64,000 nt of DNA, taken from positions 18,416-82,415 of the forward strand of contig CAVXEF010000026.1 of NCBI GenBank assembly GCA_963760535.1. Direction: 5' to 3'. The translations under genes and the position numbers were made by a program. This DNA is from an uncultured Phycisphaerales bacterium (GTDB lineage Bacteria > Planctomycetota > Phycisphaerae > Sedimentisphaerales > Anaerobacaceae). The stretch's first letter is position 1. Each line of letters starts with the position of its first letter. The notes below the pieces were generated by a model. That model was not told the origin of the DNA, searched no databases, and was given only the letters and a program-made list of their open reading frames with translations. Below, one piece after another: positions 8,954 through 40,186 of this stretch.

Positions 8954-10688
8954 TTGACCTCAGGATTAGATGAAAAGTTGAAAAGCACTCGCATTATTAT
9001 TGTCCTTTTTGTCCTTCTGATTGCGGCGTTCTTGGCGCTGATGGGGCGGTGCTTCTATCTGCAGTATTTTTCCGGCGACCACTATTCTTTAGTTTGTACA
9101 AACCAGCAGCAAAGCCGCACAACTCAAAAACCTCAGCGAGGAGTGATTCTCGACTGCAGAGGCAGGGTTCTTGCGGCGAGCAATAAAATACAGACCATCT
9201 TTGCCGAGCCTCGAATTATAGAAGACCCTATGCAAGTATCCAGCAGACTCGGACCGGTCCTCGGTATGCCTGCGAACAAAATCTGCAAAATTATCACGGA
9301 AAGCAACAATCCCGGCTTTGCGAAAATCAAGGTTGGTGCTCTTCCCAGCCGGTGCAGTGCCGCTGAGAAAATCTATGGTATCGGCGTTCAATCGGACTGG
9401 CAGCGATATTACCCTGCTGGAGCTCTAACCAGCCACATTGTCGGCTTTACGAGCGCCGACAACAGCAGGTCTGGAGGGCATAGAGCTGCAATACGACAAG
9501 GAACTTGCCGGCTCTGCCGGCGAAAACATATTTCTTGCCGACGCGCTTCGCCGACCCATTCAATTGAGACAGCAAAAAAGCATACTGGAGGACGGACTTG
9601 GTGTTATCCTGACCATCGACGCTACAATCCAGCAGTTCACACGGGCTGAACTGCTTGAGCAATATGAAAGCTACGAGGCTGAGTCGGCTGTGGCAATAGT
9701 GGCCCAGCCAAAGACAGGTGCGATTCTGGCTATGGTGTCACTGCCCGATTTTGACCCCAATAAAATCCGCACAACCAATCCGAATAATCTTTGCAATCTG
9801 GCAATAACAAGCCAGTTTGAGCCGGGCAGTATCATAAAACCGATTGTTGCCGCAATAGCACTCGATGCCGGCGCCGTTAACCGGAACGAAGAAATATTCT
9901 GCGAAAACGGCAGCTACCACGGCAAAGGTTTCGGCAGCATCGGCGAATATGCAAAACACGCGTACGGCAATCTGACCGTGCGGGAGATTCTGGTTAAATC
10001 CAGCAACATCGGAATGGCCAAAATCGGACAAAAACTCGGCAAAGACAGATTGTATGAGGGTCTGGAACGCTTCGGGTTCGGCAGAAAAACCGGAATAGAT
10101 TTGCCCGGTGAAGCCGAGGGCCTCTTACGGCCGGCGGATAAATGGACGGGATACAGCGTAACAAGAATACCATTTGGGCAGGAAATTTCCACAACCACGA
10201 TTCAATTGCTCAGGGCCTTCTGCATCCTCGCCAACGGCGGACATCCCGTTCGCCCATTTGTAGTAAGGGCAACGGTCGACAGCACAGGACAGGTTACAAA
10301 GTTGAAACAACCACCGCCAGGTGTGGGTTTTGTAGTTAAGCCGGAAGTCGCCAAATGGATTGTCGAAGACGCCCTTGTCGGAGTGGTTAATGAAGGCACC
10401 GGACGCAAAGCCAAACTGGAAAAATGGCAGCTGTTCGGCAAAACAGGAACTGCCAACATCGCAAAAAGCAATGGGCAGGGTTATTCGGAGGATGACTACA
10501 TCGCCTCGTTTGTAGCAGGGGCACCGGTCGAAGAGCCGAAGGTGGTGGTCCTGGTTTCGATTCGAAAGCCGAACAAACATCTCGGCAAAGGTTATGCCGG
10601 CGGAGAAGTCGCAGCCCCCGTAGCTGCCAGAATAATCGAAAAGACCCTAAACTACCTCGAACGATACGAAGTTAATGGCTCTCCGTAA
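8954..10688 (+). CDS. ftsI: penicillin-binding protein 3-type peptidoglycan D,D-transpeptidase (apparent frameshift near 9465)
   Basis: ORFs 8954..9649 and 9438..10688 join as ...LTSHIVGFTSADNS|GLEGIELQYDKELAG.... Also has an N-terminal TM helix, SxxK as PGSIIKP, SSN, and KTGTA. Confidence 0.85.
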
Positions 10689-11613: not shown

Positions 11614-13775
11614 TTATTCCGAATGCATGGGTTTGCCTATGTATCCCGCTTCGATGCAGAACTGGATGATGTTACGCGCCAAAGGAGCGGCATCTCTGGG
11701 GCCTGATTGGCCGCCTTCAACAACTACAGCGATAGCAATACTGCGGCGCTGGGTATCTTCGGCAAAGCCTGCGAACCAGGCGCTGTCGGGCTTTTCCGTC
11801 GAGCCGGTTTTGCCATAAACCTTGACGGCCTGCCCGCCAAAGTTGGCGTAGGCGAACGGACTGTAAGCTGTTCCGCCCGGCTCATTGACCACAGCACTCA
11901 TACCATCACGGACAACCTCCAAAGTATGCGGTGAGATACCGAGGGCGATTTCGTCGCTCGTTGCTCGTCGCTCGTCGCTCGTATCATTAGGTGTAAGGAA
12001 AAGCCGAGGTAATTTATATACTCCACCCCTTGCGATTGCGGCAAAGGCGTTAGCGACCTGTAAAGCCGTAACGCGCAAATTTCCCTGGCCTATCCCGAAA
12101 TACCTCCTTTCGCCTTTCTCAAGAGATGGGACTTGCTCAAAACTCGTGACAGCGCCTTGCGGATTTACGTTTGAGATTACTCCTTGCGCCTGTCGTAATT
12201 CCCGTGGCCCGTGACCCGTGGCTCGTGACTCGTTTGAGTCATTTAGCCATGACGGCGAAAGTTGGATTTGGTGGCCGTAGCCGAATTTGAACAGCCATTG
12301 TTGCAAAACCTTCGGGTCAATTCTGTCGGCAAGACGAGAAAAATAGATATTACAACTACCCTTGATGGCGTTGCGAGCATTGTTCGGCCATTCGTTGTCG
12401 TGACAACTGCCAGGGTATCTAATATACAACCAGCAACTTGGCCAGCCCTGCGGCGCTTTTTGAGCGGGACAGCTGATAATCTCATCAGGAGTGATTTTGC
12501 CGTCTTCGAGGCCGGCGATAAGAATTACAGGTTTTATGGCCGAGCCGGGCGGATAGGATTTGTTCAGTGCCCGGTTTATCATAGGCGTATTGGGGGCACT
12601 GCTGATATTTCCGTAGTTATATCGCGCATAATTTAAATCGAAAGTCGGCGTTGAAACCATCGCCAAAATATCACCTTTTTCGACACTAATAACGACAGCC
12701 GATGTCGGCATTTTGCAGTTGGGATTGAGATTGCAGCCAAGAAGGTAATCTTCTATTTTCTTCTGCAGCTCGATATCGAGCGTAAGCGTAACATCTTTGC
12801 CGAGCTGAGTCTCGGTCTTACTTATGAGACTGCGGTCGAGGTCGTAAATTTCCTCGCCGCGTCGGCCTCGAAGAACGGTTTCACACACATATTCTGCGCC
12901 ATCCTCGCGTCCGCACACCTCATTATCCAAATATCTCGCCAATCTGTCGTCTGCGAAGAGCTTTTTATCCTCTTCCTGTGTGGCCGGCCCGACCCAGCCG
13001 ATTGTCTGAGCGGCAACACTGCCGTGAGGATAAACCCTCTCTGCTTCGGGAAGAATCTGAACACCGTCAGTGTGCATAAATTCAAACTGCGCAGTAAAGA
13101 CATCATCATCGGTTTTCAGCTCCAATAGTGGTTCGGCGGCGTCCATCTCTGCGATGTCATCGACCCTGCCGACAAGTAAAAGACGCTTCTCTTCGCTCGG
13201 AAATCTGGTTTCAAAATCCTCGATAACTTCCGAAAGAGGAATATGACTTATTCTGCCTTCATATTTTTGTATTATATTTGGGTCAGGGTCGTTTCTTCTC
13301 CAAGCAACAAATGTCCGCAGATTCCAGATATTGTCATTTATGCTTCTGATTTTGGTCTCGATATCCGCCCGCTCGAGGCCAAAATATGTACATTTATCGA
13401 TAATCTGCTGGATGTTTTCCAAGCCGGTTTCTATCGCCTCTTTGGCCTTGGCCTCGGCAGCAGCGTTAGACTTTTGCGCCGCTTTGAGCAGCTCGGCCCT
13501 TCGAACGCGCGGGTCGGCAAAACGGCTGAGCCGGTAGTTTATGTATAGTTGGAATCGCAGCTCATCAAACGCCAGAAGTCTGCCTTTATTGTCGAATATT
13601 CTGCCTCTGACGGTTTTTAACTGTCGAGACCGGCCGCCACTGAGTTTCAATTGTGCTATTTCGTCCTGAACGGACGAGCTGGGCAATAGCTGCATCTGCA
13701 CCAGCCGGAGCAGAAGAATCAGTAAAAACAGGACACTTGCGCCAACAAAGATTTTGATTCGCCTGCTTATACATC
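11614..13775 (-). CDS. mrdA: penicillin-binding protein 2 (elongasome transpeptidase); N-terminal frameshift near 13753
   Basis: 695-aa ORF with SAIKP (SxxK) and KTGST, lying downstream of mreBCD. The TM anchor IFVGASVLFLLILLLRLVQ lies in frame upstream of the tracked start. The only ATG (13775, MYKQANQ) is one frame off across an A/T run. Confidence 0.85.
11947..11988. repeat. heptanucleotide tandem array, unit TCGCTCG (4 good + 2 degenerate units), inside mrdA
   Basis: Units read directly: gatttcg TCGCTCG TTGCTCG TCGCTCG TCGCTCG tatcatt. Translated on the minus strand as TSDERRATSDE. Confidence 0.7.
12202..12236. repeat. heptanucleotide tandem array, unit CCGTGRC (4-5 units), inside mrdA
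   Basis: CCGTGGC CCGTGAC CCGTGGC TCGTGAC TCGTTTG. Translated on the minus strand as ESRATGHGPRE. Confidence 0.7.
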
Positions 13776-13800
13776 GTAACTTCTTGCCACAGGATGCGAA

Positions 13801-14343
13801 TTACTGATGGCTGAAACGATGTGTATTTATATGCATCCACCAAGCTGAGGGCAAGAACAAAAACGGCCCCACTATCGCCGAGTACAGCGATGTCCAAAAA
13901 AGAACGGTTCCGCCGATGCTGTCTGCCACCGCAGAACCTTTCAGAAATGTTAAAAGATGCGCCAAAGTCCCGGCCAAAAGAGACGTAATGAATATCGCAG
14001 CAAACTGATAAGGCATTTTCCTGATGGCGACAGCACGGTGCAGATATGCAAGCAAAGTGCCGAACAAACCGAAGCTGATTGTATAAGGCCCCATCGTACA
14101 GCCGATGATATCAGCCGCAAAACCTATTACGAAAGAGGTTATAATCGCCTCGGTGGTCCTGCAATAAATCGCAAAAAACACAAGAAGGACCAGCAACAGG
14201 TCAGGCTTGACATTCAAACCCGCCAGTGCGCTGGCCTGCAAAACGGCAACAAGCAGAACAAAAACACCAAAACGGAGCCACCACTGCACCTGAATATCCT
14301 CCCCAGATACCTTCTTTGCTGCACAAAACAGTCGGCCTTCCAC
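13801..14343 (-). CDS. mreD: rod shape-determining protein MreD
   Basis: 180-aa polytopic membrane protein between mreC and mrdA. Its GTG start overlaps the mreC stop (TAGTG). Confidence 0.7.
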   Translation of the reverse strand: MEGRLFCAAKKVSGEDIQVQWWLRFGVFVLLVAVLQASALAGLNVKPDLLLVLLVFFAIYCRTTEAIITSFVIGFAADIIGCTMGPYTISFGLFGTLLAYLHRAVAIRKMPYQFAAIFITSLLAGTLAHLLTFLKGSAVADSIGGTVLFWTSLYSAIVGPFLFLPSAWWMHINTHRFSHQ

Positions 14344-15134
14344 TACTGCGGATTCATTATGATAACAGCCACGTTCTCCAGAGCTTGCGTATTACACGAA
14401 GGTTTGACCGTTATATCCCACAGCAAGGGATGCTCTTTGTCGGTTTTGCAGTCGGTTACTTTCCCTATAATCATCGCTCCATCGAGCAAGCCGGCGGTTT
14501 TTTGAGCGAAGACCCCATCACCTACTTTTACTTTGTGCTCTTTGGAAAGCAACCGTATCTTCGCTGAGTTATTGCCGGCCCCCTGCATAATCCTCTTTAT
14601 GTTTGATTCCGCTAATTTGATTTCAACTTTTGAAGCCGGGTCGGTAAACAACCTGACCTTCGCCGTTCGAGAACCGGCCTCGGATACGGTCCCGATAACA
14701 TTATTAAGCCCGAGAATATATTGCCCTTTGGCTATGCCGTCGTTGCGGCCGCGGTTGATAATAAGTTCGCCTTTGGAGTCGTTAATCGCGGCTGTAATCA
14801 CATCAGCAACCACCAATTTTGCGCCTTCAAATATGCGTCTATTGCGCAATCCCGATAGTTGTTCAACCTGTTGACGTTCCTGCCAAAGCTCTTCTTCGAG
14901 GTTAGCGATGTAGTTCTGATACTGCTGCTCTGTCGATTTGTCTGTGAGCGGCTGCTGGCGGTGCGCTGCCAGTGAAACGCTTCTGCCGAAGCCCAGGGGC
15001 CAGCGAAAAATACGAGCAAAGCCGAACTGAAGCTTATTCGTCAGACTGTGAGGGGTAAACAGTAAAATGAGTCCGCCCAACATAAACCAGGTAAACAACA
15101 TCCGTCGGGAGACTTTAAATTGCTTCCTTGCCAT
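14343..15134 (-). CDS. mreC: rod shape-determining protein MreC
   Basis: 263 aa with an N-terminal TM helix, a coiled-coil (NLEEELWQERQQVEQL) and a beta-rich C-terminal domain, between mreB and mreD. Confidence 0.8.
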   Translation of the reverse strand: MARKQFKVSRRMLFTWFMLGGLILLFTPHSLTNKLQFGFARIFRWPLGFGRSVSLAAHRQQPLTDKSTEQQYQNYIANLEEELWQERQQVEQLSGLRNRRIFEGAKLVVADVITAAINDSKGELIINRGRNDGIAKGQYILGLNNVIGTVSEAGSRTAKVRLFTDPASKVEIKLAESNIKRIMQGAGNNSAKIRLLSKEHKVKVGDGVFAQKTAGLLDGAMIIGKVTDCKTDKEHPLLWDITVKPSCNTQALENVAVIIMNPQ

Positions 15135-16555: not shown

Positions 16556-16610
16556 TTGGTAACTGGTAATTGGTGAATGGTAACCATTTAACCAGTTACC
16601 ATTTAACCAG
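16556..16610. repeat. hairpin-forming heptamer array (TGGTAAC units followed by complementary GTTACCA-type units)
   Basis: TGGTAAC TGGTAAT TGGTGAA TGGTAAC | CATTTAA CCAGTTA CCATTTA ACCAGTT. TGGTAACTGGT occurs in the left arm and in the reverse complement of the right arm. It starts directly after the stop codon at 16611-16613. Confidence 0.7.
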
Positions 16611-17516
16611 TTATAAATTAGTAGAAACACTATCACCAACCTTGGGCTGCTTGCTCACCAAGTCGAGCAAACCAACAGCTTTCTCGGCCTCGACGTCATA
16701 AATCAAAATATCACAAATGAACTCTTCACCACGGGTAACGTAAAACTTCATTCCTTCCTTTACACCATCCGCCGCGCCGACAGATATTTCAACCAGAGAA
16801 TTCGCCAAATCAACATCTGTCACCGAGCCTTTAAGGCTTATCTGCGCGGTGGCGGGTTCAGCAGGCCTAACTTTCGATATCTGCGGCGTTACCGGCACCG
16901 CGCCGACAACAGTCTTACCTGCCGGCCGAAGGAGATTATCCAACTTGGTCTGCAATTCGGTCTTCTCTTCGAGCAGACGCTTGTTATCTGTCTGCAACTG
17001 CTCTATTATGGCCATTTTTTCAACCAACTGTGCTGTAGTTTCACTTAGCTCTTTGCGATGTTTGATTTCTTCAGACTGGACACGCTTGAGCTCATCGAGC
17101 GTATTTTGCAACAGTGTCCCCTGCTTATCGTTGGTTGTGTAGAAATCCTTCGTTATACTTGTCCAGCTCTCCACCTGAGCAAGCAGCGACGCCCTTTCCC
17201 TATCAATATTCCCGATGTCGCCTTCCAGCTTGTCAATCTTCGCCTTAAGCGAGGCAATCTCACTTCTAAGTTTGTCTTCAAGCTGCTGCTTTTCACCGAT
17301 ATACTTATTTGCCTCGTCGGTCTTGGCCTTTAATTTTTTTTCAGAGGCGTCCCTGTCGGATTTTATATCGGCGTACTTTCCCCTGTAATTATCGGCGTTG
17401 GCAACGTAGGTTACGACAATACCGCAAAGAAATATAGAAGACAGTGTCAGCAGCACTATCAGAATCTTTGTAAGTGTGTTCAAAATCAGCTTCCTTTGCT
17501 TAATCAGGTTGGTCAT
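16611..17516 (-). CDS. bitopic coiled-coil protein (N-terminal TM, ~200-aa coiled coil, small C-terminal beta domain)
   Basis: TM segment ILIVLLTLSSIFLCGIVVTYV, then heptad-rich K/E/L sequence (KQQLEDKLRSEIASLKAKIDKLEGDIGNIDRERASLLAQVE...). First gene of the co-directional mreBCD-mrdA block. Confidence 0.6.
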   Translation of the reverse strand: MTNLIKQRKLILNTLTKILIVLLTLSSIFLCGIVVTYVANADNYRGKYADIKSDRDASEKKLKAKTDEANKYIGEKQQLEDKLRSEIASLKAKIDKLEGDIGNIDRERASLLAQVESWTSITKDFYTTNDKQGTLLQNTLDELKRVQSEEIKHRKELSETTAQLVEKMAIIEQLQTDNKRLLEEKTELQTKLDNLLRPAGKTVVGAVPVTPQISKVRPAEPATAQISLKGSVTDVDLANSLVEISVGAADGVKEGMKFYVTRGEEFICDILIYDVEAEKAVGLLDLVSKQPKVGDSVSTNL

Positions 17517-21668: not shown

Positions 21669-22329
21669 TTACGGCTTTATTATCTTTTGCTCTTCGAAGA
21701 CTTTGCCGGAGAGATAATCGGTAAAGGTAACCTTCACCGTTAAGGGCTTGTCGAAGCTCTTGACTATATCGTTTACGTCGAAAGCCAACCTGTAATTGGA
21801 GGTTAGAACAGTGTCAAACCAGAGCTTTTTCAACTCATCCGGCTTGACGTGCCACTTGGCCAGCATCGACTTGTCGCCTTCTTTGCTGAGGTCCCAAAGC
21901 TGCACATCAACAGTCGCCGCCGGCTTTTACCTTGTTGTCCTCGGCATCGACAGGCTGTACGTAAACGATTAACTTTTCCTTTCTGCCGTCTTTATCCTTA
22001 TCGTAGAGGTTGGTATATCTGGTAAGTTTGATTTCTTTCAGGTCGTAGAGACTGTCGAATTTGTCCTGCGGAAGACCCGAAATGACCTGTACCTGTTTTT
22101 TTAATTGCTGGTTCTGCGAATCGGCCTGCTGAAGCTGATTCTGGAGCTGCCTGTTTTCCCGCTTTAATGCCCGGATTTGCTCCGCCGGCGTAAGTTTTCC
22201 GCTATCTCCACAGCCTGCGGCAAATAAGAGCACAAGTGCAAAAGTGCACAAGAAGGCGGACGACAGAAGACGGAAGACGGATGACGGACGACGGACGACG
22301 GATGACGGATGACCAATGCACTTATACAT
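21669..22329 (-). CDS. lipoprotein of unknown function (apparent frameshift near 21905)
   Basis: Lipobox LLFAAGC. ORFs 21907..22329 and 21669..21905 join as ...DNKVKAGG|.TVDVQLWDLSKEGDK. The ATG overlaps the clpP stop (TAATG). Confidence 0.5.
22252..22314. repeat. heptanucleotide tandem array, unit GAWGACG, 9 units = 63 nt, encoding the N-terminus of the lipoprotein
   Basis: GAAGGCG GACGACA GAAGACG GAAGACG GATGACG GACGACG GACGACG GATGACG GATGACC. The minus-strand translation GHPSSVVRRPSSVFRLLSSAF shows a 7-aa peptide periodicity. Confidence 0.75.
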
Positions 22330-22961
22330 TACTGCTCCTTATCCCTGTCTCTAACGATTTCCGGCGCTTTCTGCAGCACCCTGTCGGCCAGGCCGTAACT
22401 TATAGCATCTTTTGCTTCCAGCCAGAGGTTTCGGTCGCAGTCCTTCTCAATTTTTTCGGCACTTTGGCCGGTATGTTTGGCCAATATCTCGTAGAGCCTG
22501 CTGCGCAGCCGAAGTATTTCCTTCGCTTCGATGTCCAGGTCGGTGGCGGAGCCTTCGAGTATTCCTGCAATTTCCGGCTGATGCAGAAGCATCCTGCTGT
22601 TAGCCAGGAGAAATCGTTTTCCGCTTTTTCCGCCGGCCAGCAGCAGCGCCGCCATACTCGCCGCCTGCCCTACGCAATACGTTGCGACATCGCATCGTAA
22701 AAACTGCATCGTATCGTAAATCGCAAGACCCGCTGTGATCGAGCCGCCCGGCGAATTGATATAAAAATGGATATCCGTCTTGGTATCTTCGTTGCTTAAA
22801 AACAGCATCTGCGCAATGATTAAATTTGCGGTTGCATCATCGGTCGGCCCGCCAAGAAAGATGATTCTATCCTTGAGCAGCCTCGAATAAATATCGTACG
22901 CTCGCTCGGTTCGACCGCTTTTTTCAATCACTATCGGCACCAAATTCTGATTAACTATCAT
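22329..22961 (-). CDS. clpP: ATP-dependent Clp protease proteolytic subunit (paralogue 1)
   Basis: 210 aa with [28 protein letters not shown] and MLHQP motifs. Confidence 0.9.
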
Positions 22962-25126: not shown

Positions 25127-25289
25127 TCTCGTACTCCCGCACAACTTCACCTTATCCACTTAAGATAATAAACAAAAATGGCGTCGGGGCAACTTATTTT
25201 TCCCTTAGCCAGATTTTCGTGATTGCGAAACGCATCGGCGACCAACGCCAAACTATCGCTTAGCCGGTAACTCACCGATACTATAGTTT

Positions 25290-25366
25290 GTTCATAGTTC
25301 GTTGTTCATTGTTCATTGTTCATAGTTTGTTGTCGATGAACCCCCAACAATAAACTATGAACTCAC
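25290..25366. repeat. hairpin-forming heptamer array (GTTCATW units, then complementary AACnnnn units) abutting tRNA-Gly
   Basis: GTTCATA GTTCGTT GTTCATT GTTCATT GTTCATA GTTTGTT GTCGATG | AACCCCC AACAATA AACTATG AACTCAC. GTTCATAGTTT (25318-25328) pairs perfectly with AAACTATGAAC (25352-25362). Confidence 0.7.
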
Positions 25367-26930: not shown

Positions 26931-28542
26931 TCAATCTCTTTTTTTACGGTATCGCTTATAGTCGATACCTAATTCGTTGACTTTATATCGTATAATCCTT
27001 GCGGTGGTTTTTAAATCTCGAGCTATTGCCGCCAGATTCCCATCGTTACGTTTGAGCGCATCAACAATCAGATCTCGTTCAAACAAATTGGTTCTTTCCT
27101 CCAATGAACCTGTGCCGATTGTGCCGGATGCGTCCGAGGTCTGAAGCGTTGGCGGCAGGTGATGTCCATGAATAACTCCGTCGCTGCTTAAAAGCACTGC
27201 TCTTTCGATACAGTTTTCAAGCTCACGGACGTTACCCGGCCAGTGATATGACACCATCATATTAATCGCAGGTGTACTGATGCGTCTAATGTCTTTGCCC
27301 ATTTTCCTGGAATACCGCTCAACGAAGAAATCAGCCAATAGCAGGATGTCATCCTTTCGCTGGCGCAGAGGCGGCAAGAAGACAGGAAACACGTTTATAC
27401 GATAGTAAAGGTCCTGCCTGAAACTTCCCTGGTCAACACATTTCTCTAAGTCTCGGCTTGTAGCTGTAATAATCCTTGCGTTTGTCCTTAAGGTGCGGTT
27501 GCTGCCGACGCGTTCAAATTCCTTTTCCTGAAGAACTCGAAGAAGCTTTACCTGGGTAGCGGAAGAGAAGTCACCTATTTCGTCGAGAAATATGGTGCCA
27601 TTGTTTGCCTCTTCAAGCCGACCTTTGCGACTTTGTATCGCTCCGGTAAAAGCCCCTTTTTCATGACCGAACAACTCGCTCTCGAGAAGGTTCTCATTCA
27701 GGGCAGCACAGTTGACTTTTACAAAAGTCCCTTTTGCTCTGGAACTGGAGAAGTGAATGGCATGGGCGACCAATTCTTTGCCGGTACCCGATTCACCACG
27801 TATAAGAACCGTCGTATCGCTGCCGGCGACCTGGTGAATCTGGTGATACACATCACGCATAGTATTGGAATTGCCTATTATATTTTCGGGGCGAAACTTG
27901 TCTTCCAGCTCATGACGTAATCGCAGATTTTCGTCTTCGAGCTGTTGACGCTCAATAGCAGCTTCCCGCCTGGTCCTCAAATCGTTTGCAATCATACTTG
28001 CAACGATGCTTAATACCCGCATTTCCTCATCGAGCGATGTTGTCTTCATCATAAGGTCTATCAACCGAAATTGTCCCAATTACATCATTGCCAATTGAAA
28101 TCGGTACACAAATAAAGCTTAAATCCTGCTTTGTAACATTCCATCTTTCAAACCGATTCAAAAAAAGCGGTTCCTGAGAAACTTTCGGGACAATCATTGC
28201 CTTGCCGGTTTGCATTACCTTACCAGTTACACCCTCTCCTATTCGATACGTAATTTTTCGACTCTGTTCCTGCGAGAGATTGTGAGCCGCTTCAATCCTA
28301 ATCTCATTGCCGTCAGGTGCAAGAAGCGTGATTGTACCTCTATTGAGACCAAGCTCATTGTCCAGCACCTCCAAAACCCTGGCAAGGTTCTCCTGCCCAC
28401 GTGCCCCTGCGGCCAGTATTTGACTAACCTTATAAAGGCTTTCAAGCTGCTGGACCTGATGTGAGGTATATACTACGTTATTTTGCCAAAGTGTCGTTTT
28501 CTTGGCCATTTTAAGAAAATCCTTCCAATTCTGATACGACAT
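26931..28542 (-). CDS. NifA/NtrC-like sigma-54-dependent activator, GAF-AAA+-HTH (apparent frameshift near 28040)
   Basis: The GAF half (28027..28542) and the AAA+ half (GESGTGKE, GAFTGA, ESELFGHEKGAFTGA, C-terminal Fis-type HTH) join as ...VDRPYDEDN|.SLDEEMRVLSIVA. Divergent from the amtB cluster. Confidence 0.8.
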
Positions 28543-29190: not shown

Positions 29191-30555
29191 ATGACGCAAA
29201 TACAAACAGAACCATTAGTGAAGATTAAACGGTTGTTTCCGGCTGTGATTTTGGGGTCAGTTCTGATGTGTCAGGCAGCATTTGCAGGCGAGGGAGGAAC
29301 GACTGCGCCGGCGAAGGCAGCTATAGACTCCGGGGATACCAGTTGGCTGCTGATATCAACCGCATTAGTGATGCTCATGACACCCGGGCTGGCGTTTTTC
29401 TACGGGGGGCTGGTTCGGCGAAAAAATATGCTGTCGGTACTTATGCAGTGCTTTATGGTTCTGTGCATAATAAGTATTCAATGGATAGTATGCGGGTACA
29501 GTTTATCGTTCGGGCCGGATAAGGGTTCTGTAATCGGCGGGCTGGAATGGTTCTTCCTGAAAAGCGTAGGAATGAACCCGAATCCCGACTATGCAGCGAC
29601 AGTGCCGCACGAAGTATTTATGATGTTCCAGATGATGTTTGCAGTGATAACGCCGGCGTTAATCATAGGCGCATTCGCGGAACGGATGAAATTCTCATGC
29701 GTTTTGTATTTTTATGCTGTTGTGGGCGACTTTTGTGTATGACCCGATAGCACACTGGGTATGGGGTGTTGGAGGTTTTTTGAGAAAGATGGGAGCGTTA
29801 GATTTTGCCGGTGGAGCTGTCGTTCATATAAACGCCGGGATGACAGCTTTGGCGGCAGCACTGATATTAAGGAAGCGACAGGGTTATCCGTGCAGTATTT
29901 CTCCTCCGCACAATTTGCCGTTTGCCGTGTTGGGTGCGGCTCTATTATGGTTTGGATGGTTCGGCTTCAACGCCGGCAGTGCCTTGAAGGCGTCGGGCTC
30001 TGGCAGGCAATGCGTTCACCGTAACACACATAGCCGGTGCCGTTGCCGGTGCAACGTGGGCTATGCTCGACTGGCTCAAGTACAAAAAGCCAACGACATT
30101 AGGTATGATTACCGGTGCAGTGGCCGGCCTGGCAGCCATTACCCCAGCATCCGGATTCGTTACGCCTGCGGCGGGCAATATGGATAGGTATAGGAGCAGG
30201 TGTATTTCCGTGGCTGGCAGTTACATATCTTAAAGGGGTGCTGGGTTATGATGATTCATTAGATGCCTTTGGCGTGCATGGAATCGGAGGCATCTGGGGC
30301 GTGATTGCAACAGGTATATGGGCCACAAAGACAATTAACCCGGATGGGGCAAATGGTTTGTTGTACGGTAATCCGGCACAATTGTGGATTCAGGTTAAGG
30401 CGGTTATTGTCACATTAGTGTATTCATTCGTAGTCGGAATCGTGCTGCTGAAGCTGGTGGATGCGGTAATGAAGCTGCGGGTAAGTGAGCACGAGGAGCG
30501 AGTGGGCCTGGATTTGACGCAGCATCGGGAAGCGGCGTATACATTGATTGATTAA
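29191..30555 (+). CDS. amtB: ammonium transporter (three apparent frameshifts)
   Basis: Segments in frames 1,2,3,1 join as ...FAERMKFS|..[18 protein letters not shown]...[11 protein letters not shown]|[25 protein letters not shown]...TPAAG|.[15 protein letters not shown]...[13 protein letters not shown]. Breaks fall near 29705, 29998 and 30178. Confidence 0.85.
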
Positions 30556-30916: not shown

Positions 30917-31061
30917 ACAGAGGCTCTTGTTAAGGAAGGTAAGTCCTTTTGGCTTGCCCCTTCTTTTATTTTGTAACTTTCTGCAATTCTGTATAAGATG
31001 TTGCAGCAGTAAGGCAGGTATCAACAAAAACGAAAAAATGTCTATAAGAAGGAGAAACTCA

Positions 31062-32474
31062 ATGACACCGAAAGAGTTTTTTGAATTCGCAAAGAAGAAC
31101 AACGCAAAGATGGCGGACCTGAAATTCGTCGACCTCCTTGGCACGTGGCAGCACTGCACGTTCCCAGTGGAGTACTTGGACGAAAATACCTTGAAGGAAG
31201 GTCTCGGTTTCGACGGTTCCTCAATCCGCGGCTGGAAGCCGATTCACCAGTCCGACATGATGGCGGTTCCGGACCTCAGCACCGTCGTAATGGACCCGTT
31301 TTTCGAAAAACCTACGGTGAGCGTCATTACGGACATCATCGACCCCATCACACGTGAAGAATATAATCGCGACCCGCGCTATGTCGCCCGCAAGGCGGCC
31401 GAATTCGCGAAAAAGACCGGGCTGGCGGATACCGCGTATTTCGGCCCGGAGCCGGAATTCTTTATCTTCGACGAAGTTCGTTACGAACAGAACCAGCATA
31501 CCGGAATGTATGTCATCGATTCGGCGGAAGGGTCCTGGAACACCGCCCGTTTCGAAGAACCCAATCTTGGATACAAACCGTCGTACAAAGGCGGTTATTT
31601 CCCAGTGAGCCCGACCGACACCCAACAGGATATCCGGTCCGAAATGGTCGAGGAAATGCAGAAGATTGGGATTGTGGTCGAGAAACACCATCATGAAGTT
31701 GCCTCCGGGGGGCAAGCCGAAATCGACATGCTTTTCTCACCACTGGTCAAGATGGCCGACCAGCTTATGTGGTATAAGTACATCGTCAGGAACGTGGCCA
31801 AGCGCCACGGTAAAACGGCAACGTTTATGCCCAAGCCGATATTCCAGGACAATGGTAGCGGTATGCACACGCACTTCTCGCTCTGGAAGAAGGGCGTCAA
31901 CCTGTTCGCCGGCAAAGGATATGCCGGGCTCTCCGATCTCGCCATACATGCAATTGCCGGGCTCATCACCCATGCGCCGGCCATCCTGGCTTTCGCCGCG
32001 CCAACCACGAACTCATACCGCCGGCTCGTGCCAGGTTTCGAGGCGCCGGTGAACCTGTGTATGTCCGCACGTAACCGGTCGGCCGCCTGCCGCATCCCGA
32101 TGTACTCACCGAGTCCGAATTCTAAACGAGTCGAATTCCGTTGCCCAGACCCGAGCTGCAACGGCTACCTTACTTTCGCCGCGATGCTCATGGCTGCCAA
32201 CGATGGCGTCAAACGCAAGCTCGACCCCGGCAAACCGCTGGATGTGGACGTGTACGAGCTGTCCAAGAAAGAGCTGGCCAATACCAAACAGGCACCCGGC
32301 TCCCTCGCAGAGGCGATTGATGCGCTCGAGAAGGACCATGCGTTTCTCACCGTCGGCGACGTCTTTACCGAAGACCTTATCGAGACGTGGATTCAGTGGA
32401 AACGGGAAAAAGAATTGGACGAGATGGCACTGCGGCCGCATCCGTATGAGTTTCACCTATATTATGACAGTTGA
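31062..32474 (+). CDS. glnA: glutamine synthetase type I
   Basis: ATG 31062 lies 8 nt after [37 protein letters not shown]..., [24 protein letters not shown]. Confidence 0.9.
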
Positions 32475-38498: not shown

Positions 38499-40186
38499 AT
38501 GCGAATAGCACTGGCACAATTTGACGCGTCGGTCGGTAATATCAAAGGTAATATCGGGAAAATGGAAAAGCTAAGCGCCAAAGCGTACGACTTAGGTGCT
38601 GACATTGTGGTTTTTCCCGAAATGTCGGTGTGCGGTTATCCTCCGGAAGACCTGTTGTTTAAAAAACATTTTCTGGAAGACAACCGCTTGGCGGTGGAAC
38701 GCCTGGCACAAAAGGCCAGTCGTTTGGGGTCTGGGGTCAGGGGTCTGGAGTCTGGGATTACTGTCGTAGCTGGTTTTGCAGAGATAAATGACAAGGGCTG
38801 CTTCAATTCACTTGCTGTATTGCAAGGCGGCAAGATTGCGAGGATTTATCGAAAAAGCATTTTACCTAATTATGGGGTGTTCGACGAAAGGCGATATTTT
38901 CGCCCGGGGACAGAAGCGGTACGAATCACAATAAAAGATATGGCTGTGGTGTTTGCAATCTGTGAAGATATATGGCGTCTGAAGTGGCTGGACAGTTTCC
39001 TTGGAGAAATACCACGGATAGACATAATCATAAATATATCCGCGTCTCCCTTTCACATAGGCAAAATCAGCCAGCGTGAAGAAATTCTCCGCCAATGCGC
39101 AAAGCATTTTAACTGTGCCGTTGCCTATTGCAATTTGGTCGGCGGTCAGGATGAACTTGTTTTTGACGGCCGAAGCATGTTTGTGGATTCATCCGGCAAC
39201 GTTGTTTGCGTAGCTGCGGCGTTTGCAGAAGATATGCTGCTGGCAGATTTAGTAGCAGCGGAGAACGTCTGTCGTCTGTTGCCGGTCGTCGGTCGTCGGT
39301 CGACGAGAGACGAGGGACGAGGGACGAGAGACGAGATTGCCGAGGTTTATAATGCACTGATTCTTGGGGTTAAAGACTACGTACGAAAGAACAATTTTTC
39401 CAAAGTTGTAATCGGCCTCAGTGGTGGAATAGATTCATCTCTTACGGCGGCAATTGCCGCAGGTGCGCTGGGGGCAAAAAATGTCGTCGGCGTAACTATG
39501 CCGTCACAATTTAACAGTCCGGATACTATCAGAGATGCACAAACACTGGCAGACAATCTTGATATTGAGTTTCACGTTTTGCCAATCAAGGCAACGCTGG
39601 AGCAATTTAACGAAGCTGCTGACAAAAATGCCGGGATGGGACAAAACGGGTATAGCCTATGAAAATCTGCAGGCAAGAATTCGAGGATGTATACTTATGT
39701 CTTTGAGCAACCGATACGGTTATCTTGTTTTGACCACCAGCAACAAGAGCGAAACCGCTGTCGGATATGCCACCCTGTATGGTGACACAGCGGGTGGCTT
39801 TGCGGTTTTGAAAGACGTGCCCAAGACAATGGTTTATCAATTGGCTGAGTATGTAAATAAGGTCCATCACGGAGTTATCCCCGCTACGGTAATACAACGA
39901 CCTCCGAGTGCTGAACTAAAGGAAAACCAAAAGGATACAGATTCCCTTCCGGAGTATGACATCCTCGACCGCGTACTTCGTAGTTATGTGGAAGAAGACA
40001 AAGGGGTTTCTGAGTATGGTCAAGGAAGGCTTACCCAAGAATATCGTTAATAAGGTCGTCAGTATGGTGGACCGGAATGAATACAAAAGGAGACAATCTC
40101 CACCGGGGATTAAAATCACTCCGAAAGCATTTGGTAAAGACAGGCGAATGCCCATAACCAACCTCTATACTTCCGAAAGACCTTAG
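38499..40186 (+). CDS. nadE: glutamine-dependent NAD+ synthetase (two apparent frameshifts, two in-frame heptamer arrays)
   Basis: CN-hydrolase domain (MRIALAQ...[12 protein letters not shown]) plus synthetase domain ([24 protein letters not shown]). Joins occur near 39635 (..AGMG|[13 protein letters not shown]) and near 40011 (..DKGVSE|[22 protein letters not shown]). Confidence 0.85.
38719..38760. repeat. heptanucleotide tandem array, unit GGGGTCT (4 good + 2 degenerate units = 42 nt), inside nadE
   Basis: gtcgttt GGGGTCT GGGGTCA GGGGTCT GGAGTCT gggatta. Translated as [14 protein letters not shown]. Confidence 0.7.
39267..39336. repeat. bipartite heptanucleotide array, 5 x GTCNGTY then 5 x GACGAGR, inside nadE
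   Basis: GTCTGTC GTCTGTT GCCGGTC GTCGGTC GTCGGTC | GACGAGA GACGAGG GACGAGG GACGAGA GACGAGA. The arms are complementary at 5 of 7 positions per unit and are centred on GTCGAC. Translated as [23 protein letters not shown]. Confidence 0.8.

What the first reader, a model, noticed from the sequence alone, without database searches (positions are those of the whole stretch)
11947..12236. Two different heptamer arrays read through in frame inside the essential transpeptidase gene mrdA
Two arrays about 250 bp apart (units TCGCTCG and CCGTGRC) are translated as ..PND[TSDERRATSDE]IALG.. and ..NDSNE[SRATGHGPRE]LRQAQG... Both are charged, low-complexity stretches that look like loop insertions in the PBP2 transpeptidase region. 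The ORF stays open across both. An essential elongasome enzyme thus tolerates, or exploits, repeat-encoded peptide inserts. Any gain or loss of one unit would knock out PBP2.
Basis: partly seen in the sequence, partly recalled or inferred. Interest (0 to 1): 0.65.

Follow-up and report, generated by a model that had tools for sequence, protein, structure and literature searches.

The report
In-frame heptamer microsatellites in PBP2 loops
Two short 7-base tandem repeats sit in frame in two floppy loops of a cell-wall enzyme gene, and they are local examples of a 7-base repeat habit shared by this whole bacterial group, which changes loop length in 7-amino-acid steps and shows no sign of a special function.

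Summary
Window 11951-11982 holds (ACGAGCG)x4.6 on the coding strand. Window 12201-12233 holds (ACGAGTC/ACGGGCC)x4.7. Both are read in frame in a PBP2-type class B transpeptidase gene (11614-13701, minus strand) downstream of mreC and mreD.

Close orthologues differ by exactly 21 nt, which is 3 units or 7 aa. One has 1.6 units at site 1 and another has 1 unit at site 2. The arrays are therefore expansions of local seeds, not foreign inserts.

The trait is clade-wide (Sedimentisphaerales/Phycisphaerae MAGs). In the window and in 1.2 Mb of related loci, exact tandem runs occur almost only at periods 7, 14 and 21. In 84 mrdA orthologues, 39 of 48 heptamer arrays fall in these same two loops. They use many different units, and loop lengths are quantised (19, 26, 33 and 47 aa at site 2).

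Both loops have pLDDT below 50 and no secondary structure in an AlphaFold model. The catalytic motifs are intact. No orthologue is frameshifted at an array.

The best reading is tolerated slippage-driven heptanucleotide microsatellites, filtered by selection to 3-unit steps. There is no evidence for exploitation or phase variation. It is a new member of a known kind, of moderate interest. The window's assembly has several 1-nt frameshifts, one of them at the mrdA start.

The parts
11614..13701 (-). PBP2/MrdA-type class B penicillin-binding protein gene as callable (695 aa, GTG start). It has PBP_dimer and Transpeptidase domains.
   Evidence: 59-86% identical orthologues in Sedimentisphaerales/Planctomycetota MAGs
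11951..11982 (-). Array 1: heptamer ACGAGCG x4.6 on the coding strand, encoding T574-E584 (TSDERRATSDE). It is 3 units (21 nt, 7 aa) longer than the allele of L002 and L005.
   Evidence: pLDDT below 50 at residues 572-582
12201..12233 (-). Array 2: heptamers ACGAGTC/ACGAGCC/ACGGGTC/ACGGGCC x4.7 on the coding strand, encoding N490-E501 (NESRATGHGPRE). It is 3 units longer than the allele of L001. Its last unit contains the codon of the invariant Arg500.
   Evidence: pLDDT below 50 at residues 482-508
12532..12543 (-). SxxK active-site motif (S387-A-I-K390), intact
   Evidence: translation; invariant columns S387 and K390 in 40 orthologues
12349..12357 (-). SxN motif (S449-C-N451), intact
11803..11811 (-). 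KTG motif (K631-T-G633), intact. It lies downstream of both arrays, so a frameshift at either array would remove it.
13702..13777 (-). True 5' end of mrdA. ATG at 13775-13777 followed by codons 2-3 (MYK) is in one frame. An extra G near 13767 shifts the rest, RRIKIFVGASVLFLLILLLRLV (the membrane anchor), into the main frame. The orthologues read MYNRRIKIFVG... continuously.
13801..14343 (-). mreD (context)
   Evidence: MreD is also upstream of the orthologues
14343..15134 (-). mreC (context)

Best explanation
The two arrays are heptanucleotide microsatellites (long-unit simple-sequence repeats, of the same kind as cyanobacterial STRRs and the heptanucleotide SSR excess described for many bacteria).

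They grew in place, most likely by slipped-strand mispairing during replication or repair. The starting material was 1 to 2.4 unit seeds that already form part of the coding sequence of two hypervariable, disordered loops of the PBP2 transpeptidase domain.

Seven is not a multiple of three. In an intact gene, selection therefore retains only net changes of three units (21 nt, one 7-aa cassette). Loop length consequently changes in 7-aa quanta.

The arrays sit where they do for two reasons. This lineage has a genome-wide, period-7-specific tendency to tandem duplication. These two loops, like the nadE interdomain linker, tolerate almost any hydrophilic peptide.

Shown here: the arrays, their period specificity, the 21-nt differences from close orthologues, the seeds, the hot spots, the length quantisation and the low-confidence loops. 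Inferred: slippage as the mechanism, near-neutrality of the inserts, and purifying selection as the filter.
For: Arrays and frame.

Codon-level DNA alignment:
- Site 1: the window has ACGAGCG x4.6, while L002 has ACGAGCGACGAA (1.6 units), a gap of exactly 21 nt.
- Site 2: the window has 4 units and L001 has 1, again a gap of exactly 21 nt.

Other short alleles also carry seeds. Examples are L051 GAAATTCGAAATTCAGAT (2 units, 10-aa loop), against L019 (AATTTCG)x5 and L017 (AAATCGG/A)x5 (17-aa loops).

Period specificity:
- Window: 6 runs at period 7 against 0.04 expected, and none at periods 4-13 other than 7.
- 80 related loci (1.21 Mb): period 7 = 112, period 14 = 99, period 21 = 65, all other periods 1-17.

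Hot spots: of 48 arrays in 84 orthologous mrdA genes, 17 map to residues 480-499 and 22 to residues 570-589. They use 11 and 13 different units respectively.

Quantisation: site-2 loop lengths are 19 aa (32 sequences), 26 (13), 33 (2) and 47 (1). Of 43 loops longer than 19 aa, 16 are 19+7k, against 1/7 expected (p = 1.7e-4).

Turnover: there are at least 47 (site 1) and 37 (site 2) length-state changes on an 83-taxon tree, against 3-22 for other segments. Among the five closest relatives (at least 80% identical), the states of the two sites are mutually incongruent.

Structure: pLDDT is below 50 and there is no secondary structure at 482-508 and 572-582. The fold matches PBP2.

Function retained: the catalytic motifs are invariant, and 0 of 83 orthologues are broken at an array.

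Permissiveness: the same loop also carries unrelated palindromic-element-derived inserts in L011, L042, L053, L061, L046 and L049. nadE has three in-frame arrays, two of them in its interdomain linker.

Precedent: heptanucleotide SSRs are the most abundant long-unit SSR class in many bacteria, with polymerase slippage proposed as the cause (Mrazek et al. 2007, as summarised in PMC4679880 and PMC4692102). A 1.6-unit seed, GGTGcccGGTG, expanded by slipped-strand mispairing in Pseudomonas (bioRxiv 10.1101/2024.05.01.592015).
Against: Units are not random. Only 59 canonical units occur among 131 arrays. The same unit (AATACGC) occurs at three non-homologous sites of mrdA in different lineages. Arrays in one locus resemble each other more than shuffling predicts (26 pairs against 14.1 expected, p about 0.002). 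Simple slippage from arbitrary seeds does not predict this. It needs an added preference, either in the mutational process or through selection on the peptide, or some ectopic copying.

Slippage itself was not observed. No raw reads were available, only consensus contigs.

Polarity (expansion or contraction) is not resolved for either site.

Neutrality is inferred from tolerance, not measured.
Confidence: 0.78

Rival explanations
1. Heptamer arrays are spread as ready-made blocks by an active or templated process, such as ectopic gene conversion between arrays or an unknown enzyme that writes favoured heptamers. They land in permissive sites such as these loops rather than growing from local seeds.
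For: The pool of units is restricted and recurrent. The same unit occurs at non-homologous mrdA sites. Units within a locus are more similar than expected (p about 0.002). Four of the six strong arrays in the window are ACGRGNN. Metagenome contigs pile up on array 1 with unrelated flanks, so the same array exists at many other loci.
Against: Short alleles differ by exactly three units and already contain the unit. No extra sequence and no target-site duplication is seen. Units at one orthologous site drift by point changes along lineages. Sharing of exactly identical units within a locus is not significant (p = 0.13). The recurrence can also come from selection on the encoded peptide, which must be stop-free in all three frames and hydrophilic.
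Confidence: 0.12
2. The loop cassettes are selected variation. Changing the length or charge of these PBP2 loops tunes interaction with partners (RodA, MreC, PBP1) or with inhibitors such as beta-lactams, so the repeats are exploited as an evolvability device.
For: These two loops have the highest length turnover in the protein. Array density in mrdA is about three times that of the flanking DNA. The encoded peptides are consistently charged and hydrophilic.
Against: The loops are low-confidence and unstructured. They accept unrelated junk such as palindromic-element-derived peptides. Similar arrays sit in the nadE linker and in intergenic DNA. No test of positive selection was possible. High turnover is what a neutral microsatellite in a permissive loop would show anyway.
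Confidence: 0.07
3. The arrays act as a contingency (phase-variation) switch. Gain or loss of one unit reversibly turns PBP2 off and on.
For: The unit length is not divisible by three, and both arrays lie upstream of the KTG motif, so a one-unit change would truncate the enzyme (direct reading of the sequence). Heptanucleotide repeats can evolve into such switches.
Against: 0 of 83 orthologues are out of frame at an array. No 7-nt indel is seen in related metagenome contigs, and one contig about 96% identical spans array 1 with the same copy number. The tracts are short (under 5 units). The gene is a housekeeping cell-wall enzyme, not a surface or modification gene. Arrays occur just as often in other housekeeping genes.
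Confidence: 0.03

Closest known systems
Heptanucleotide long-unit simple-sequence repeats of bacteria (Mrazek, Guo and Shah 2007, as summarised in PMC4679880 and PMC4692102)
   Same: Tandem 7-nt units with a few to about a dozen copies. There is a period-7-specific excess over other unit lengths, many different units per genome, and length variation between related genomes. Polymerase slippage is the proposed cause.
   Different: The excess was reported mostly for Burkholderia, Xanthomonas, cyanobacteria and actinobacteria, and mainly in intergenic DNA. Here the host is Sedimentisphaerales/Phycisphaerae (Planctomycetota). I found no report for this group. About half of the arrays lie deep inside long open frames, where they change in 3-unit steps.
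Cyanobacterial STRR (short tandemly repeated repetitive) heptamers of Nostoc, Anabaena and Calothrix
   Same: Families of favoured heptamer units are repeated in tandem at many loci. From my own recollection, not checked against a paper here, STRRs can sit inside an essential gene product (RNase P RNA).
   Different: The phylum and the unit sequences differ. STRRs are described as mainly intergenic or non-coding. No common origin is shown.
Heptanucleotide contingency locus in Pseudomonas fluorescens pflu0185 (bioRxiv 10.1101/2024.05.01.592015)
   Same: A 1.6-unit seed within a coding sequence (GGTGcccGGTG) expands by slipped-strand mispairing. Single-unit changes break the reading frame.
   Different: There the out-of-frame states are the selected phenotype, and the tract lies at the 5' end of a regulator gene. 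Here only in-frame (3n-unit) states are seen, in loops of a housekeeping enzyme.
TAACTGA heptamer repeats of marine Beggiatoaceae (PMC4679880)
   Same: Heptamer direct repeats are abundant in a lineage. That paper also discusses translation of a heptamer array through all three frames into a 7-aa periodic peptide.
   Different: That system has a single dominant unit, located mostly just upstream of start codons, with stops in the forward orientation. Here there are many units, which are stop-free and read through.

Membership tests
Heptanucleotide simple-sequence repeat (microsatellite) | Head-to-tail copies of a 7-nt unit, three or more copies, high identity | tested here: met
   TRF: 4.6 copies at 92% matches, and about 4.7 copies at 82-89%
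Heptanucleotide simple-sequence repeat (microsatellite) | Excess over chance that is specific to period 7 | tested here: met
   Window: 6 runs against 0.04 expected, and none at other periods from 4 to 13. In 1.21 Mb of related loci: 112, 99 and 65 runs at periods 7, 14 and 21, against 1-17 elsewhere
Heptanucleotide simple-sequence repeat (microsatellite) | Copy-number differences in whole units between related genomes at the same site | tested here: met
   Differences of exactly 21 nt (3 units) at both sites. Series of 2 units against 5 units at site 1. Site-2 loop lengths of 19, 26, 33 and 47 aa
Heptanucleotide simple-sequence repeat (microsatellite) | Ongoing slippage (minor length alleles within a population) | not testable with these tools
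   Only Logan consensus contigs were available for the runs that hold the sequence. These drop rare variants
Cyanobacterial STRR family | Cyanobacterial host and the canonical STRR units | tested here: not met
   All relatives are Planctomycetota, Phycisphaerae or Sedimentisphaerales MAGs. The units ACGAGCG and ACGRGYC are not the STRR units as I recall them (that comparison is from memory)
SSR-mediated phase-variable (contingency) gene | Out-of-frame alleles among strains or within populations | tested here: not met
   0 of 83 orthologues are interrupted at an array. No 7-nt indels appear in related contigs. This test is limited to consensus sequences
SSR-mediated phase-variable (contingency) gene | Repeat unit not divisible by three inside the ORF, so that a unit change shifts the frame | tested here: met
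   Direct reading of the sequence: 7-nt units upstream of the KTG motif
PBP2 / MrdA (elongasome class B transpeptidase) | PBP_dimer and Transpeptidase domains with SxxK, SxN and KTG motifs | tested here: met
   Pfam. S387/K390, S449/N451 and K631-T-G633 are invariant in the alignment. The top Foldseek hits are PBP2 of Yersinia and E. coli
PBP2 / MrdA (elongasome class B transpeptidase) | NCBIfam equivalog TIGR03423 at or above its trusted cut-off | tested here: not met
   282 bits against a cut-off of 455. It is the best-scoring model, but the protein is divergent
PBP2 / MrdA (elongasome class B transpeptidase) | Gene context with mreC and mreD | tested here: met
   mreC (14343-15134) and mreD (13801-14343) lie directly upstream on the same strand. 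The orthologues have the same arrangement
PBP2 / MrdA (elongasome class B transpeptidase) | Intact N-terminal membrane anchor in frame with a start codon | tested here: not met
   An extra G near 13767 separates the ATG from the anchor-encoding frame. This is probably an assembly indel, because a comparable 1-nt error in ftsI at 9465 is absent from near-identical Illumina-derived contigs
Mobile-element insertion (MITE/REP-like) | Foreign sequence with terminal inverted repeats and/or a target-site duplication relative to the empty site | tested here: not met
   The filled and short alleles differ only by three extra copies of a unit that is already present

The most novel reading that the evidence does not exclude
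Sedimentisphaerales and related Phycisphaerae may have a lineage-specific, period-7-specific repeat-writing process that favours a limited pool of units and partly homogenises them within a genome. This would be more than passive slippage. Such a process would continually add and remove 7-aa cassettes in permissive loops and linkers of housekeeping proteins (PBP2, NadE and others), acting as a genome-wide generator of quantised protein length variation.
Probability: 0.15. Interest if true: 0.65.

Novelty: new member of a known kind. Interest (0 to 1): 0.4.

Why it matters
The finding shows that the heptanucleotide-repeat habit known from a few bacterial groups also exists across an order of Planctomycetota.

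It also reaches into conserved housekeeping genes there. It leaves a clear signature: loop lengths that change in 7-aa steps at the same two sites in dozens of lineages.

This has practical value in three ways:
- Annotation: such charged 7-aa periodic stretches are repeat-derived and are not functional motifs.
- Structure: it marks two permissive loops in PBP2.
- Mutation biology: the clade offers a natural system for asking why 7 nt is the favoured slippage unit.

It does not point to a new function of PBP2.

Tried and rejected
Chance was rejected by the period spectra and the shuffles.

An assembly artefact was rejected. Independent assemblies carry the same arrays: L001 has the same length at site 1, L002, L003 and L004 have the same length at site 2, and an X6 contig spans array 1 without a gap.

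A foreign or mobile insert was rejected, because the short alleles already contain the unit and differ by exactly three units.

Phase variation has no support, since no out-of-frame orthologue was found. Read-level testing failed because all 20 runs found are kept only as Logan contigs (share of words at most 0.34), which cannot show minor alleles.

The contigs also break at the arrays, because the same heptamer tract occurs at many other loci. Array 2 was not spanned by any near-identical contig.

Genome-specific use of exactly identical units was not significant (p = 0.13). A looser test allowing one mismatch was significant (p about 0.002), and this remains unexplained.

Literature searches for heptamer repeats in Planctomycetes or Sedimentisphaerales returned nothing. 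PMC3315296 does not treat heptamers.

The antisense ORFs over the arrays (11885-12214 on the plus strand) were considered and dismissed as by-products of the open frame on the other strand.

The AlphaFold model is only moderate overall (mean pLDDT 70.8).
Full report
**1. Observation**

Tandem Repeats Finder reports a period-7 array at 11951-11982 (4.6 copies, 92% matches). It reports a second at 12201-12233 (about 4.7 copies, also scored as period 14 x 2.4).

The minus-strand ORF 11614-13701 (695 aa) runs open through both arrays. It reads PND-TSDERRATSDE-IALG (T574-E584) and NDS-NESRATGHGPRE-LRQAQG (N490-E501).

On the coding strand the units are ACGAGCG (array 1) and ACGAGTC, ACGAGCC, ACGGGTC and ACGGGCC (array 2). 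The two arrays are therefore variants of one ACGRGNN theme rather than unrelated repeats.

**2. The gene**

- Pfam finds PBP_dimer and Transpeptidase domains.
- The best solved relatives are MrdA of E. coli, Yersinia and others.
- An AlphaFold model (mean pLDDT 70.8) matches PBP2 structures best.
- mreC and mreD lie directly upstream.
- The catalytic motifs S387xxK390, S449xN451 and K631TG633 are present and invariant in 40 orthologues.
- The NCBIfam mrdA equivalog is the best-scoring model, but its score is below the trusted cut-off (282 bits against 455).

I call the gene a divergent PBP2-type enzyme on the basis of fold and gene context. Its essentiality in this organism is assumed, not shown.

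**3. More than chance, and not special to mrdA**

In the window, exact lag-p runs of at least 10 nt number 6 at period 7, 6 at period 21, and at most 1 at any other period from 4 to 24. Codon-shuffled sequence gives about 0.04 per period.

TRF lists about eleven period-7 arrays with different units across the 64 kb. Three of them are in frame in nadE (38499-39662). One lies in the CN-hydrolase domain. Two adjacent arrays lie in the linker between the CN-hydrolase and NAD-synthase domains.

**4. Relatives**

The protein's homologues are Sedimentisphaerales, Phycisphaerae and Planctomycetota MAG proteins. I fetched the DNA of three close orthologues and of 80 genome loci.

Across those 1.21 Mb the same signature holds. 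There are 112, 99 and 65 runs at periods 7, 14 and 21, against 1-17 at all other periods. The heptamer habit is a trait of the clade. It is weaker in the most distant third of the loci (4.2 against 8-9 arrays per 100 kb outside mrdA).

**5. What the arrays are at the DNA level**

A codon-anchored alignment gives these comparisons.

| Site | Window | Close orthologue | Difference |
|---|---|---|---|
| 1 | ACGAGCG ACGAGCG ACGAGCA ACGAGCG ACGA (4.6 units) | L002 (86% identical protein; L005 is the same): ACGAGCG ACGA (1.6 units) | exactly 21 nt |
| 2 | four units | L001 (80% identical): one unit | exactly 21 nt |

The 'empty' sites are therefore not empty. They hold the seed.

The same pattern is seen in a second family of site-1 alleles. 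Loops of 10 aa contain about two units, for example GAAATTC GAAATTC in L051. Their 17-aa relatives contain five units: (AATTTCG)x5 in L019 and (AAATCGG/A)x5 in L017.

This is the pattern expected of slipped-strand mispairing on a short seed. It has been shown experimentally for a heptanucleotide in Pseudomonas. An open reading frame then lets only 3-unit net changes survive.

**6. Hot spots and quantisation**

In 84 orthologous mrdA genes I found 48 period-7 arrays. Seventeen map to window residues 480-499 and 22 to residues 570-589, exactly the two sites of the finding. The rest map to the N-terminus, to about residues 82-87, and to one other place.

The arrays at one site use many units, 13 at site 1 and 11 at site 2. 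They give peptides such as TSIEHRASRIE, IENRESSIENR, NTQYAIRNTQY and SNFEFRISNF.

Site-2 loop length is 19 aa in 32 sequences, 26 in 13, 33 in 2 and 47 in 1. Of 43 loops longer than 19 aa, 16 are 19+7k, against one in seven expected (p = 1.7e-4).

On a neighbour-joining tree built from the remaining columns, the two loops need at least 47 and 37 length-state changes. Other segments need 3-22. Among the five closest relatives, the states of the two sites are mutually incongruent. Turnover is therefore fast relative to substitutions.

**7. Are they loops?**

The model has pLDDT below 50 and no secondary structure at 482-508 and 572-582.

E. coli PBP2 aligns with an unrelated, non-repetitive stretch of similar length at site 1 (19 aa against 18 aa). 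At site 2 it aligns with a stretch about 6 aa shorter. These positions are thus length-variable in PBP2s in general.

The same site-1 loop in other orthologues carries unrelated palindromic-element-derived peptides (VIASEAKQSQ..., RHSERSEESL...). This argues that the loop accepts almost anything.

**8. Function and phase variation**

One unit gained or lost at either array would shift the frame before the KTG motif.

However, none of the 83 orthologues is interrupted at an array. Related metagenome contigs show no 7-nt indels. One contig about 96% identical spans array 1 with the same copy number.

Only consensus contigs were available, so minor alleles cannot be excluded. Nothing indicates that the enzyme exploits the cassettes.

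**9. What remains unexplained**

- The units come from a restricted, recurring pool: 59 canonical units among 131 arrays.
- The same unit appears at non-homologous mrdA sites in different lineages.
- Units within one locus resemble each other more than shuffling predicts (26 pairs against 14.1 expected, p about 0.002).
- Exact-unit sharing within a locus is not significant (p = 0.13).
- Metagenome contigs pile up on array 1 with unrelated flanks.

Three causes could produce this: selection on the encoded peptide (stop-free in three frames, hydrophilic), a sequence preference of the slippage process, or ectopic copying. I could not separate them.

**10. Comparison with what is known**

Heptanucleotide repeats are the most abundant long-unit SSR class in many bacterial genomes. 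Polymerase slippage has been proposed as the cause (Mrazek et al. 2007, as summarised in PMC4679880 and PMC4692102). Cyanobacterial STRRs and the Beggiatoaceae TAACTGA repeats are lineage-specific examples.

I found no report for Planctomycetota. The present case is a new host clade. It is also an unusually clear coding-region manifestation, with 3-unit, 7-aa quanta at fixed hot spots in a conserved enzyme. It is not a new kind of element.

**11. Data-quality note**

The window has several 1-nt frameshifts in housekeeping genes.

| Gene | Position |
|---|---|
| ftsI-like PBP | 9465 |
| mrdA start | extra G near 13767 |
| nadE | near an A5 run |
| sigma-54 activator | split ORFs 26931-28079 / 28027-28542 |
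| ammonium transporter | split ORFs 29191-29742 / 29714-30187 |

At 9465, near-identical contigs from runs X3 and X5 lack the extra base. These frameshifts look like long-read assembly indels. They do not affect the arrays, which independent assemblies corroborate.

**12. Verdict**

The best explanation, at confidence about 0.78, is tolerated, slippage-driven heptanucleotide microsatellites in two permissive PBP2 loops, as part of a clade-wide trait. It is a new member of a known kind, with interest 0.4.

Noticed in passing
window 8954-10688 (+), position 9465: An ftsI-like class B PBP is split into two overlapping ORFs (PBP_dimer in 8954-9649, Transpeptidase in 9438-10688). Near-identical metagenome contigs from runs X3 and X5 lack one base at 9465, which restores the frame. 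This is probably an assembly indel.
   Followed up: yes
window 13702-13777 (-): An extra G near 13767 separates the mrdA start codon (ATG at 13775-13777) and codons 2-3 from the frame that encodes the membrane anchor. The orthologues read MYNRRIKIFVG... continuously. As assembled, the gene has no canonical in-frame start codon upstream of its anchor.
   Followed up: partly
window 38499-40050 (+): Glutamine-dependent NAD synthetase (nadE) carries three in-frame heptamer arrays: 38725-38756 in the CN-hydrolase domain, and 39266-39302 plus 39302-39336 in the interdomain linker. It is also split by a frameshift at about 39600-39640, near an A5 run.
   Followed up: partly
window 22252-22313: This is the longest heptamer array in the window (GAAGACG/GACGGAT, 8.9 copies). 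It lies between clpP (22329-22961, minus strand) and a lipoprotein-like ORF (21907-22329, minus strand). It is either 5' leader or an N-terminal extension.
   Followed up: no
window 26931-28542 (-) and 29191-30187 (+): A GAF/sigma-54 activator and an ammonium transporter are each split into overlapping ORFs. These are further apparent 1-nt frameshifts, next to glutamine synthetase (30927-32474).
   Followed up: partly
L011, L042, L053, L061 and L046, L049: mrdA site-1 loop: The same PBP2 loop carries inserts of 20-30 aa that read VIASEAKQSQ... or RHSERSEESL.... These are peptides typical of small palindromic repeat elements translated in frame. In L011 the insert lies next to a heptamer array.
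   Followed up: no
window 16556-16613 and 25288-25333: Two intergenic arrays: a compound one (TGGTAAC x4 followed by a 15-nt unit x2.1 whose copies are complementary to it, hairpin-like) and TTGTTCA x5.7. The unit AACAATG recurs in several related loci (L006, L072, L028).
   Followed up: no
window about 28000: Cumulative GC skew reaches its minimum near 28 kb, where G+C drops to 0.44. This coincides with a switch in gene orientation. No dnaA gene was seen among the ORFs checked there.
   Followed up: partly
runs X1-X6 laid on window 11948-11984: Contig depth spikes 10- to 60-fold over array 1, with many unrelated flanking sequences. Some of these continue into other heptamer arrays, for example ACGAGGC ACGAGTC ACGGGTC and GAGTCTG repeats. 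(ACGAGCG)n and compound heptamer arrays are therefore common at many loci in soil, wetland and sediment metagenomes.
   Followed up: partly
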